From Escherichia coli (GTDB taxonomy: Bacteria > Pseudomonadota > Gammaproteobacteria > Enterobacterales > Enterobacteriaceae), in assembly GCF_003334305.1 (NCBI RefSeq), contig NZ_QOWS01000025.1: a DNA stretch of 64,000 nt, one strand, 5' to 3'. Shown one piece after another: positions 60,101 through 60,737 of the stretch. A program made the position numbers. Position 1 is the stretch's first letter. Each line of letters opens with the position of its first letter.

Positions 60101-60737
60101 CGATGATGATGGTCAATCGTCCGAAGCAACAGCCACCCCACGATAACGTTTAGCAAAAAATGCTCTCCTTTATGATTTAAGAGTTATGGCGATGATACGG
60201 GGCTTTACCTCCCCGTAATATTGCGTTAACAGGCCGCTGACGGCTTCGATCGTGAAGGAGAATAACAATGTTCAGGTCACTGTTTCTGGCGGCCGCCCTG
60301 ATGGCATTTACCCCGCTTGTAGCAAACGCAGGTGAAATCACCCTACTGCCATCAATCAAATTACAAATTGGCGATCGCGATCATTACGGTAATTACTGGG
60401 ACGGTGGTCACTGGCGCGACCGTGACTACTGGCATCGCAATTATGAATGGCGTAAAAACCGCTGGTGGCGTCATGATAATGGCTATCATCGTGGCTGGGA
60501 TAAGCGTAAAGCGTATGAGCGTGGCTATCGTGAAGGCTGGCGCGATCGTGACGATCATCGCGGAAAAGGCCGCGGACATGGACACCGCCATTAAACACAT
60601 TCGCCAATGGAGCACAATGCCTGATGCGACGCTAGCGCGTCTTATCAGGCCTACAAACCGGCTCTTTAACGCGTAGGGCGGATAAGGCATTTACGCCGCA
60701 TCCGCCAATAGTGCCAGATGCGACGCTCATTCAACTA

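What the first reader, a model, noticed from the sequence alone, without database searches (positions are those of the whole stretch)
60268..60594. YpeC is a secreted low-complexity protein with repeated Trp/Arg/His/Asp motifs
After a signal peptide the 108-aa product is dominated by RDRDYWH / [11 protein letters not shown] / [19 protein letters not shown] repeats. This unusual composition suggests metal (His-rich tail) or nucleic-acid/polyanion binding. The gene sits directly before mntH, separated by REP elements.
Basis: seen in the sequence. Interest (0 to 1): 0.25.

Follow-up and report, generated by a model that had tools for sequence, protein, structure and literature searches.

The report
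YpeC: known stress-induced periplasmic protein
This is the already annotated E. coli gene ypeC, encoding a small exported protein rich in tryptophan, arginine and histidine (family DUF2502, function unknown); published data show it is switched on by envelope-stress and antibiotic-stress regulators, and nothing here ties its regulation to the neighbouring manganese transporter.

Summary
Window 60268-60594 (+) is an intact 108-codon gene, E. coli ypeC, found in 5425 of 5426 complete E. coli genomes. It has a Sec signal peptide (cleavage after VANA, residue 21). The 87-residue mature protein has pI about 10 and is 72% R/G/D/H/W/Y. It is not just low complexity. Residues 23-70 are the conserved DUF2502 core (invariant P28, G35, G41, Y43-W44-D45-G46; AlphaFold pLDDT 83-90). 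Residues 72-108 are a predicted disordered Gly/His/Arg tail. The "repeats" are compositional echoes: there is one core unit, and WRDRD occurs twice. The whole protein, tail included, is under strong purifying selection (dN/dS 0.05-0.09). The link to mntH is positional only. The two genes converge across two and a half REP elements. mntH has a perfect MntR palindrome and a Fur-like box; ypeC has neither. Upstream of ypeC lie a conserved marbox (a published MarA/SoxS ChIP site), a conserved RcsB-type half-site and a TAATAT -10. Published transcriptomes show 24- to 60-fold changes in conditions that alter Rcs activity. The paralog yaaX and a Serratia homolog are Rcs-regulated. Best reading: an envelope-stress periplasmic effector that binds anionic envelope components. 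Metal binding by the His tail remains possible and untested. Known gene, low interest.

The parts
60149..60163 (-). Marbox (MarA/SoxS/Rob site). It reads GCATTTTTTGCTAAA on the minus strand and overlaps the yfeO stop codon (60151-60153).
   Evidence: Identical to the published MarA ChIP-seq site for ypeC in E. coli (PMC5684230) and to the SoxS site in Salmonella (PMC10268841). It matches the marbox consensus at 12 of 14 specified positions. It is conserved in 20 of 21 enterobacterial genera.
60174..60185 (+). Conserved block GATTTAAGAGTT containing TAAGA (60178-60182), a candidate RcsB left half-site TN(G/A)GA, about -48 from the inferred transcription start.
   Evidence: All 21 genera fit TN(G/A)GA (TAGGA 10, TAAGA 8, TCAGA 2, TCGGA 1). 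The consensus is taken from PMC7913699. The right half TC(T/C)NA is absent at N4 spacing in E. coli, so the assignment is inferred, not shown.
60198..60215 (.). Conserved G+C palindrome CGGGG-CTTTACCT-CCCCG in the promoter spacer; role unexplained.
   Evidence: Kept in most of 21 genera, with paired arm changes in Salmonella and Citrobacter.
60216..60221 (+). Candidate -10 hexamer TAATAT; the inferred transcription start is near 60228.
   Evidence: 17 of 21 genera have TAATAT; the other four differ only at position 4 (TAAAAT, TAAGAT, TAACAT), so T1, A2 and T6 are invariant. The generic sigma-70 scan found no full -35/-10 pair, as expected for an activator-dependent promoter (inference).
60255..60261 (+). 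Shine-Dalgarno sequence AAGGAGA, 6 nt before the ATG.
   Evidence: Nearly invariant in 21 genera; coordinates checked.
60268..60330 (+). Sec signal peptide, residues 1-21 ([21 protein letters not shown]).
   Evidence: It has the n/h/c regions and an A-N-A cleavage motif. P16 and A21 are nearly invariant in the family alignment.
60334..60477 (+). DUF2502 core, residues 23-70 ([48 protein letters not shown]).
   Evidence: Pfam PF10697, E = 1e-23. Invariant P28, G35, G41, Y43, W44, D45, G46. AlphaFold pLDDT is 83-90 for residues 31-70. dN/dS is 0.01-0.06 against Escherichia, Salmonella and Citrobacter.
60478..60591 (+). Charged C-terminal region, residues 71-108. It contains the ortholog-conserved [18 protein letters not shown] segment and ends in the Gly/His/Arg tail [10 protein letters not shown].
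   Evidence: pLDDT is below 50 for residues 72-108. The tail composition is conserved across the family. dN/dS is 0.05-0.09.
60619..60650 (.). REP element 1 (palindrome GCCTGATGCGACGC...GCGTCTTATCAGGC).
   Evidence: Inverted repeat I1. Sub-threshold match to the REP-derived Rfam family naRNA4, E = 3e-7. Stable hairpin in the centroid fold.
60677..60706 (.). REP element 2 (GGCGGATAAGGC...GCCGCATCCGCC), in the opposite orientation.
60712..60727 (.). Partial third REP copy (TGCCAGATGCGACGCT), just before the mntH stop codon.
   Evidence: Direct repeat D2, 94% identical to 60618-60633.
60735..61973 (-). mntH (Nramp Mn2+/Fe2+ transporter). It is the convergent neighbour and not part of the ypeC unit. 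Its own MntR palindrome is at 61987-62006 and its Fur-like box at 62023-62041.
   Evidence: ORF list, RefSeq annotation, operator scan.

Best explanation
ypeC is a stand-alone gene encoding a Sec-exported, soluble periplasmic protein of about 11 kDa with pI about 10, belonging to the DUF2502 family.

The protein has two parts. The first is a compact, conserved mini-domain built almost entirely from Trp, Tyr, Arg, Asp, Gly and His (residues 23-70). The second is a flexible Gly/His/Arg-rich tail.

The gene is transcribed from its own activator-dependent promoter. Published data show MarA/SoxS binding at a conserved marbox and strong dependence on conditions that change Rcs envelope-stress signalling. 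It is not transcribed together with mntH, and no metal-responsive site was found.

Inferred mechanism, not shown: when the envelope is damaged, the protein accumulates in the periplasm. There it binds anionic or glycan components of the envelope, such as phospholipid or LPS phosphates, peptidoglycan or other envelope glycans. Binding would use Arg/His-phosphate contacts and Trp/Tyr stacking, shielding or stabilising those components. The His-rich tail would add pH-dependent charge and could chelate divalent metals as a secondary property.

Confidence in identity, export and regulation is about 0.9. Confidence in the binding mechanism is about 0.3.
For: Identity:
- 100% match to annotated ypeC; a match to the 701-bp query spanning ypeC is present in 5425 of 5426 complete E. 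coli genomes.
- Pfam DUF2502, E = 1e-23.

A real, constrained protein:
- dN/dS is 0.05-0.07 overall, 0.01-0.06 in the core and 0.05-0.09 in the tail.
- Orthologs occur across Enterobacteriaceae and, much more diverged, in the same gene context elsewhere.

Architecture:
- Invariant PxxxxxxG..G.YWDG core.
- AlphaFold pLDDT is 83-90 for residues 31-70 and below 50 for 72-108.
- The core unit is duplicated in tandem in other members, which marks it as an autonomous module.

Export: signal peptide with an AXA cleavage site.

Regulation:
- The marbox at 60149-60163 is identical to the published MarA and SoxS ChIP sites and is conserved in 20 of 21 genera.
- Expression rises 42- to 60-fold with a LolCDE inhibitor, alongside classic Rcs-regulon genes such as osmB, bdm and wca.
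- Expression falls 24-fold in an rcsB-disrupted O157 strain.
- The paralog yaaX is in the RcsB regulon.
- A Serratia DUF2502 promoter is used as an rcsB-dependent reporter.
- A conserved TN(G/A)GA half-site and a -10 hexamer lie upstream.

Composition consistent with polyanion or interface binding: net +7 without counting His, 17% aromatic residues, and aliphatic residues only in residues 23-35.
Against: - No binding partner, phenotype or structure exists for any DUF2502 protein in the searched literature. Fold and sequence searches against solved structures found nothing, and AFDB matches were almost all DUF2502 or uncharacterised entries. The binding step is therefore inference from composition and regulon membership alone.
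- No complete RcsB box (TN(G/A)GAN4TC(T/C)NA) is present upstream (best 6 of 8 specified positions), so Rcs control could be indirect.
- The conserved His-rich tail would be explained equally well by a metal-binding role.
- The convergent ypeC/mntH arrangement persists even in orthologs only about 37-43% identical, so a functional link with Mn transport cannot be excluded on synteny alone.
Confidence: 0.45

Rival explanations
1. One reading: YpeC is a periplasmic metal-binding or metal-buffering protein. Its His-rich tail and the many His/Asp residues in the core would capture divalent cations (Mn, Zn, Ni, Cu), working with the adjacent MntH importer.
For: - There are 9 His and 10 Asp in 87 mature residues, and the protein ends in GHGHRH.
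- His/Gly tails are a family-wide trait (26% His in the last 20 residues) and are under purifying selection.
- The convergent adjacency to an Nramp gene is kept in about 68 of 79 Enterobacteriaceae loci and in divergent positional orthologs.
Against: - The genes converge and have separate promoters.
- No Fur or MntR site lies upstream of ypeC, whereas both are found at mntH by the same scan.
- Known regulation is by Rcs and MarA/SoxS, not by metals.
- YaaX (next to thrC and yaaA), P0176 and P0185 are not next to a metal transporter, and YaaX and P0176 still carry His-rich tails.
- There is no homology to any known metal-binding family or structure.
- The adjacency lies inside a larger conserved block (glk ... 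ypeC-mntH-nupC), so it carries little information.
Confidence: 0.17
2. YpeC is a stress-induced, largely disordered periplasmic holdase or 'shield' protein that coats unfolded envelope proteins rather than lipids or glycans. This would work like Spy, which was induced in the same LolCDE-inhibitor experiment.
For: - It is induced together with spy, degP and other envelope-stress genes.
- Residues 72-108 are predicted to be disordered.
- The protein is small, abundant-type, highly charged and lacks Cys.
Against: - It has almost no hydrophobic surface beyond residues 23-35.
- There is no similarity to Spy/CpxP or any chaperone family.
- The conserved part is a rigid, aromatic-rich mini-domain rather than an amphipathic cradle.
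Confidence: 0.1
3. The protein matters less than its transcription. On this reading, strong Rcs- or Mar-driven ypeC transcription reads through the REP elements into the 3' end of convergent mntH and lowers Mn import during envelope stress.
For: - No intrinsic terminator (hairpin plus T-run) follows ypeC; only REP hairpins lie between 60594 and 60735.
- ypeC induction reaches 42- to 60-fold.
- The convergent layout is conserved, and yaaX/yaaA repeats it.
Against: - Strong purifying selection on the whole protein shows that the product itself is functional.
- REP hairpins commonly act as 3'-end barriers (established knowledge).
- There is no evidence of antisense mntH RNA in anything examined.
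Confidence: 0.05
4. It is a spurious or decaying low-complexity ORF with no function.
For: The composition is unusual, several mechanical ORFs overlap it in other frames, and there is no NCBIfam model.
Against: - dN/dS is 0.05-0.07.
- The gene is intact in essentially all E. coli genomes.
- The SD sequence, signal peptide and core motif are conserved across genera.
- It is strongly regulated.
Confidence: 0.01

Closest known systems
YaaX (b0005), the E. coli K-12 paralog (DUF2502)
   Same: - 60% identity over residues 2-66 (BLASTP E = 1e-29).
- Same signal peptide plus core plus His-rich tail (HHKKAPHDHHGGHGPGKHHR).
- Member of the RcsB regulon.
- Also followed by REP elements and a convergent gene.
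   Different: - The C-terminal half is unrelated in sequence: a Pro-rich linker replaces the [15 protein letters not shown] segment.
- The locus is different (thrC-yaaX/yaaA).
- No marbox or Fur box was detectable upstream.
- Induction by the LolCDE inhibitor is weaker (8- to 12-fold against 42- to 60-fold).
Serratia marcescens SMDB11_2817 (a DUF2502 gene used as an Rcs reporter)
   Same: It is described as similar to E. coli yaaX and carrying the DUF2502 domain. Its promoter is induced by several log10 in a gumB (igaA-type) mutant, in an rcsB-dependent manner (PMC8470065).
   Different: It belongs to a different genus. Its sequence was not retrieved here, and its function is equally unknown.
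Small periplasmic or envelope proteins induced together with ypeC by Lol inhibition or colicin M (OsmB, Bdm, Spy, YmgD/YmgG, YpfG, YcfJ); Ivy and MliC recalled from general knowledge
   Same: They share the same inducing conditions and are small exported stress-induced proteins; many have unknown function.
   Different: There is no sequence or fold relationship. Ivy and MliC are lysozyme inhibitors with defined folds, whereas YpeC is strongly basic, like lysozyme itself. That makes the same mechanism unlikely (inference).
His-rich bacterial metal-binding proteins (for example RcnB and ZraP in the periplasm, Hpn in the cytoplasm)
   Same: They are small and have His-rich stretches capable of chelating Ni, Zn or Cu (general knowledge). 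One Pantoea DUF2502 protein is even auto-annotated as a 'zinc ABC transporter substrate-binding protein'.
   Different: There is no homology. ypeC has no metal-responsive promoter elements. Those proteins are regulated by their cognate metals, whereas ypeC responds to Rcs and MarA/SoxS.
Trp/Arg-rich membrane-active peptides (indolicidin, tritrpticin, lactoferricin), as a 'works like' comparison only
   Same: They share a cationic, Trp- and Arg-rich composition, which favours binding at anionic membrane interfaces and to LPS (general knowledge).
   Different: Those are short secreted antimicrobials acting on foreign cells. YpeC is an 87-residue endogenous periplasmic protein with a conserved folded core and many acidic residues. 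The resemblance is recalled from memory and was not tested.

Membership tests
Pfam DUF2502 (PF10697) | Significant match to the family HMM over its full length. | tested here: met
   E = 1e-23, 83.8 bits, model positions 1-90 of 90, residues 23-106. All 33 aligned homologs also match.
Pfam DUF2502 (PF10697) | N-terminal signal peptide followed by the conserved core motif (I/L)G(D/E)RDxxGxYWDGxxW(R/Q)D. | tested here: met
   Invariant P28, G35, G41, Y43, W44, D45, G46 and nearly invariant L32, D36, D38, W49, W55. Signal peptide shown.
MarA/SoxS/Rob regulon | A marbox (AYnGCACnnWnnRYYAAAY) upstream of the promoter. | tested here: met
   12 of 14 specified positions at 60148-60166 on the minus strand. 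The core 15-mer is identical to the published site and is conserved in 20 of 21 genera.
MarA/SoxS/Rob regulon | In vivo binding and activation by the regulator. | not testable with these tools
   Literature only: MarA ChIP-seq with '+++' in vitro binding in ETEC and SoxS ChIP-exo in K-12 (PMC5684230); SoxS ChIP-seq in Salmonella (PMC10268841).
Rcs (RcsB) regulon | RcsB-dependent expression. | not testable with these tools
   Literature only: -23.7-fold in an rcsB-disrupted O157 strain (PMC5343319); +42- to 60-fold with a LolCDE inhibitor, alongside other Rcs-regulon genes (PMC5105897).
Rcs (RcsB) regulon | RcsB box TN(G/A)GAN4TC(T/C)NA near the promoter (PMC7913699). | tested here: inconclusive
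   There is no full box (best 6 of 8 specified positions). The left half-site TN(G/A)GA at 60178-60182 fits in all 21 genera, varying only at the degenerate positions. The right half is missing in E. coli.
mntH operon / MntR-Fur metal regulon | Same-strand co-transcription with mntH. | tested here: not met
   ypeC is on the plus strand and mntH on the minus strand; they converge, with 140 bp and REP elements between them.
mntH operon / MntR-Fur metal regulon | An MntR palindrome or a Fur box in the promoter region. | tested here: not met
   Upstream of ypeC the best scores are MntR 9/16 and Fur 12/19, which is background. The positive control at the mntH promoter gives MntR 16/16 (61987-62006) and Fur 15/19 (62023-62041).
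Known periplasmic metal-binding protein families | Sequence or fold homology to a characterised metal-binding family. | tested here: not met
   Pfam gives only DUF2502. NCBIfam gives nothing. PDB sequence search gives nothing at E <= 10. Foldseek against PDB gives no match with E below 3. AFDB matches are almost all DUF2502 or uncharacterised entries.
Known periplasmic metal-binding protein families | Demonstrated metal binding. | not testable with these tools
   Only composition is available: 9 His in 87 mature residues and a GHGHRH terminus, plus His-rich tails across the family.
REP / BIME extragenic palindromes | Imperfect palindromes of roughly 30-35 nt of the GCCKGATGCGRCGCT type, in alternating orientation, between gene ends. 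| tested here: met
   Arms at 60619-60632/60637-60650 and 60677-60688/60695-60706. Matches to the REP-derived Rfam family naRNA4 with E = 3e-7 and 5e-6, below the gathering score. Stable hairpins, z = -3.4.

The most novel reading that the evidence does not exclude
DUF2502 would be a previously uncharacterised kind of periplasmic mini-domain, held together by Trp/Tyr-Arg (cation-pi) packing rather than an aliphatic core. It would come as a single unit or tandem units plus a (Gly/His)n tail. In this reading it acts as an Rcs-induced binder of envelope polyanions or glycans, with the tail adding pH- or metal-dependent switching. A bolder variant adds that its strongly induced convergent transcription also damps mntH (and, for yaaX, yaaA), coupling envelope stress to Mn/Fe handling.
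Probability: 0.2. Interest if true: 0.45.

Novelty: already known. Interest (0 to 1): 0.2.

Why it matters
ypeC is one of the most strongly induced genes when the Rcs envelope-stress pathway fires, changing 24- to 60-fold. It also carries a conserved MarA/SoxS site, yet neither it nor any other DUF2502 protein has an assigned function. Assigning one would fill a small gap in how enterobacteria protect the envelope during antibiotic, lysozyme or lipoprotein-trafficking stress. As a genome-scan finding, however, it is an already annotated gene in a catalogued domain family. The one specific new idea, a link to manganese transport, is not supported by gene orientation or by promoter content.

Tried and rejected
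1. True internal repeats. Tandem Repeats Finder found none. DNA direct repeats are short and weak. The unit HMM matches only once. Rejected in favour of compositional bias plus one conserved unit.
2. Homology to something characterised. NCBIfam, Pfam on the query and on all 33 aligned members, the PDB sequence profile, Foldseek against PDB and Foldseek against AFDB50 returned only DUF2502 or nothing.
3. Metal regulation. Fur, MntR and OxyR consensus scans upstream of ypeC gave background scores, while the mntH promoter control gave clear MntR and Fur hits. yaaX also has none.
4. A full RcsB box was not found upstream of ypeC or yaaX.
5. An intrinsic terminator after ypeC was not found.
6. A structured 5' UTR was not significant (z = -0.3).
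7. Literature searches for b2390, P64542, STM2407 and Z3656 added nothing. Searches for ypeC, DUF2502 and yaaX found no functional study.
8. A plasmid-borne or mobile origin was checked. The plasmid hits are mostly megabase-sized records that look like mislabelled chromosomes.
9. I recalled resemblances to choline-binding repeats and YXWGXW repeats. Pfam reported no such match even at E <= 10, so these are not claimed.
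Full report
**What is there.** The window is E. coli chromosome, with the gene order glk (-), yfeO (+), ypeC (+), mntH (-), nupC (+). The reported interval 60268-60594 is an intact ORF from ATG to TAA encoding 108 residues. A 701-bp query spanning it matched annotated ypeC, 'DUF2502 domain-containing protein YpeC', at 100% identity. That query found a match in 5425 of 5426 complete E. coli genomes.

**Export and composition.** The N-terminus ([23 protein letters not shown]) has the charged, hydrophobic and AXA regions of a Sec/SPase I signal. It has no lipobox cysteine, and the mature protein has no cysteine at all. The mature protein is 87 residues, about 11 kDa, with pI 9.98. It contains R 18.4%, G 14.9%, D 11.5%, H 10.3%, W 9.2% and Y 8.0%. 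Almost all its aliphatic residues lie in residues 23-35. Its W+Y+H+R+D+G fraction is the highest of all 116 mechanical ORFs of at least 80 aa in the window. The compositional observation is therefore real and far from typical.

**Repeats.** These are overstated.
- Tandem Repeats Finder finds nothing at the DNA level.
- Dispersed DNA repeats are short; the best is 16 nt at 94% identity, encoding WRDRD twice.
- A repeated exact 5-mer appears in 2.5% of composition-preserving shuffles.
- An HMM of the 26-residue family unit (residues 33-58, IGDRDxxGxYWDGxxWRDxxWWxxHY) matches once at 49.9 bits. It gives only faint echoes of its WRDxxW half at residues 60-69 and 90-96 (E 0.04-0.2).
- The same HMM finds two clear tandem copies (E 1e-8 to 1e-14) in eight other family members.

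So the unit is an autonomous module. It is duplicated elsewhere in the family and occurs once in YpeC.

**Family and architecture.** Pfam gives DUF2502 (PF10697) at E = 1e-23 over the whole model; NCBIfam has no model. A word-indexed search found 278 relatives. An exhaustive HMMER search of 1.84 billion cluster representatives found 86, of which only 35 had E <= 1e-10. Every hit that carries a source name is enterobacterial. Many metagenomic 'representatives' are frameshift chimeras.

An alignment of 33 clean sequences has invariant P28, G35, G41, Y43, W44, D45 and G46, and nearly invariant L32, D36, D38, W49 and W55. Beyond residue 70 the sequences diverge. Within the ypeC orthologs, however, an [15 protein letters not shown] segment and a terminal Gly/His run are kept.

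AlphaFold2 with this alignment gives pLDDT 83-90 for residues 31-70: short strands, a helix at 52-58 and a hairpin at 59-68. It gives pLDDT below 50 for residues 72-108. No relationship to any characterised protein was found. The PDB sequence profile gave nothing at E <= 10 and Foldseek against PDB gave nothing below E = 3. Foldseek against AFDB50 returned almost only DUF2502 or otherwise uncharacterised entries.

**Is it a real, constrained protein?** Yes. Against E. albertii, Citrobacter, Salmonella and Kosakonia, dN/dS is 0.05-0.07 for the whole gene. Against Escherichia, Citrobacter and Salmonella it is 0.01-0.06 for the core and 0.05-0.09 for the 'disordered' tail.

The His-rich terminus is a family trait. 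Over 84 distinct tails, the last 20 residues are 26% His, 26% Gly, 18% Arg and 11% Asp, and 83% of tails have at least 4 His. The median pI of the mature-like regions is 9.8. These tails are dominated by close ypeC orthologs and so are not independent samples. Distant members nevertheless show the same tendency: YaaX, P0137 (HHGHGHERHHHDD), P0152 (HGHDHHHDD) and P0196.

**Relation to mntH.** The statement that ypeC sits 'directly before mntH' needs correcting. mntH (60735-61973) is on the opposite strand, so the genes converge and their 3' ends face each other across 140 bp. That gap holds two full REP palindromes (60619-60650 and 60677-60706) and a partial third (60712-60727). These are ordinary BIME-type elements. 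No hairpin-plus-T-run terminator is present.

The convergent arrangement is conserved in about 68 of 79 Enterobacteriaceae loci. It is also conserved in positional orthologs only about 37-43% identical, which sit in the order ipdC, gpr, DUF2502, then convergent Nramp, then nupC. But this is part of a larger conserved block running from glk to nupC. Other family members lie elsewhere:
- YaaX-type genes sit between thrC and a convergent yaaA.
- P0176 sits between glk and a Gig2-like gene.
- P0185 sits next to HSP20 and an HD-domain response regulator.

YaaX and P0176 still carry His-rich tails, so the tail does not track mntH adjacency.

**Regulatory content.** I aligned 170 bp upstream of ypeC from 21 genera. 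Although the upstream gene differs (yfeO in Escherichia, gpr in most others), four blocks are conserved.
1. TTTAGCAAAAA(A/G)TGC at 60149-60163. This is the reverse complement of GCA(T/C)TTTTTGCTAAA. It is identical to the MarA ChIP-seq site reported for ypeC in E. coli (PMC5684230) and to the SoxS site in Salmonella (PMC10268841). It is present in 20 of 21 genera.
2. GATTTA(A/G)GAGTT at 60174-60185. Its TAAGA fits the RcsB half-site TN(G/A)GA (consensus from PMC7913699) in all 21 genera, varying only at the two degenerate positions.
3. A G+C palindrome at 60198-60215.
4. TAATAT at 60216-60221, with T1, A2 and T6 invariant and variation only at position 4. This pattern is typical of a -10 hexamer.

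From these I infer a transcription start near 60228. That places the half-site at about -48 and the marbox at about -72. A nearly invariant AAGGAGA Shine-Dalgarno sequence follows (60255-61).

No full RcsB box is present. A consensus scan gives only background scores for Fur (12/19) and MntR (9/16) upstream of ypeC. The same scan finds a perfect MntR palindrome (61987-62006, 16/16) and a 15/19 Fur box (62023-62041) at the mntH promoter. The two genes thus carry clearly different regulatory signatures.

**Literature.** Only about ten relevant papers in the searchable library mention ypeC, and none studies its function.
- ypeC is induced 42- and 60-fold by a LolCDE inhibitor, alongside osmB, bdm, wca and spy (PMC5105897).
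- It is down 23.7-fold in an rcsB-disrupted O157:H7 isolate (PMC5343319).
- It is bound by MarA and SoxS.
- It appears in multi-stress 'core' gene sets and among genes responding to conjugation.
- The paralog yaaX is listed in the RcsB regulon and is induced by colicin M and by the LolCDE inhibitor.
- A Serratia DUF2502 promoter serves as an rcsB-dependent luminescent reporter (PMC8470065).

Rcs control therefore looks like a shared feature of several DUF2502 genes across genera. Nothing found links the family to metal availability.

**Most likely mechanism.**
- Shown or directly supported: YpeC is a stand-alone gene. It encodes an exported, basic, aromatic-rich protein with a conserved compact core and a constrained flexible His/Gly/Arg tail. 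Its promoter carries a MarA/SoxS site, and its expression changes strongly with Rcs activity.
- Inferred: under envelope stress it accumulates in the periplasm and binds anionic or glycan envelope components. Arg/His would contact phosphates or carboxylates, and Trp/Tyr would stack or insert at interfaces. The tail would add pH-dependent charge and possibly metal chelation.

I put about 0.9 on the first part and about 0.3 on the binding mechanism.

**Rivals.**
- A metal-binding or metal-buffering role tied to MntH, about 0.17. It is kept alive by the conserved His tail and the synteny, and weakened by gene orientation, promoter content and the known regulators.
- A Spy-like holdase, about 0.1.
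- A transcriptional-interference role of convergent read-through, about 0.05.
- A spurious ORF, about 0.01, contradicted by selection and conservation.

**Comparison with the known, and novelty.** The gene, its family (DUF2502), its paralog and its regulon memberships are all already catalogued. What remains unknown is the biochemical function. Its one specific contextual inference, a functional link with mntH and metal regulation, is not supported.

**Verdict.** Already known; interest 0.2.

Noticed in passing
window 61954-62043 (-): RefSeq annotates a 29-aa small ORF, 'YpeD' ([29 protein letters not shown]), which overlaps the mntH start codon. It lies directly over the MntR palindrome (61987-62006) and the Fur-like box (62023-62041). 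It is a ribosome-profiling sORF (bioRxiv 10.1101/2021.07.02.450978). A coding sequence lying on top of the operators of the downstream gene is curious.
   Followed up: partly
window 60198-60215: A conserved G+C palindrome, CGGGG-CTTTACCT-CCCCG, lies in the ypeC promoter spacer immediately upstream of the candidate -10. It is kept in most of 21 genera, with paired arm changes in Salmonella (CAAAGC..GCTTCG). It may be an operator for an unidentified regulator; it remains unexplained.
   Followed up: partly
L092 (NC_000913.3 4800-6600) compared with window 60268-61973: The paralog yaaX repeats the ypeC layout: a DUF2502 gene, then REP elements, then a convergent gene (yaaA, annotated as a peroxide stress response protein, against mntH). 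From memory, both convergent genes belong to the OxyR peroxide response. This may be coincidence or a recurring arrangement.
   Followed up: partly
window 61987-62006 and 62023-62041: The mntH promoter contains a perfect MntR palindrome (AACATAGCCTTTGCTATGTT) and a 15/19 Fur-box match (GAGAATGATTATCAAATTC). Both were used here as positive controls.
   Followed up: yes
L001, L054; AFDB entry A0A0A2WL73: Some public records look contaminated or mislabelled. A 398-bp 'Rhizobium wenxiniae' contig is 99% identical to E. coli ypeC. A 'Chryseobacterium sp. 18061' contig carries the full enterobacterial yfeO-ypeC-mntH-nupC block. A 'Beauveria bassiana yghZ' protein contains a DUF2502 region.
   Followed up: no
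window 60332-60676 (+, frame +1) and 60361-60690 (-): Long mechanical ORFs overlap ypeC in other frames, a by-product of its codon composition. Many metagenome-derived 'proteins' in the representative library are frameshift chimeras that switch into the +1 frame ([11 protein letters not shown]...). This inflates the apparent diversity of the family.
   Followed up: partly
loci L008, L011, L018, L019, L021, L029, L079 (Citrobacter): In several Citrobacter loci no mntH was detected within about 4 kb downstream of ypeC. This suggests an insertion or rearrangement between the two genes in that lineage.
   Followed up: no
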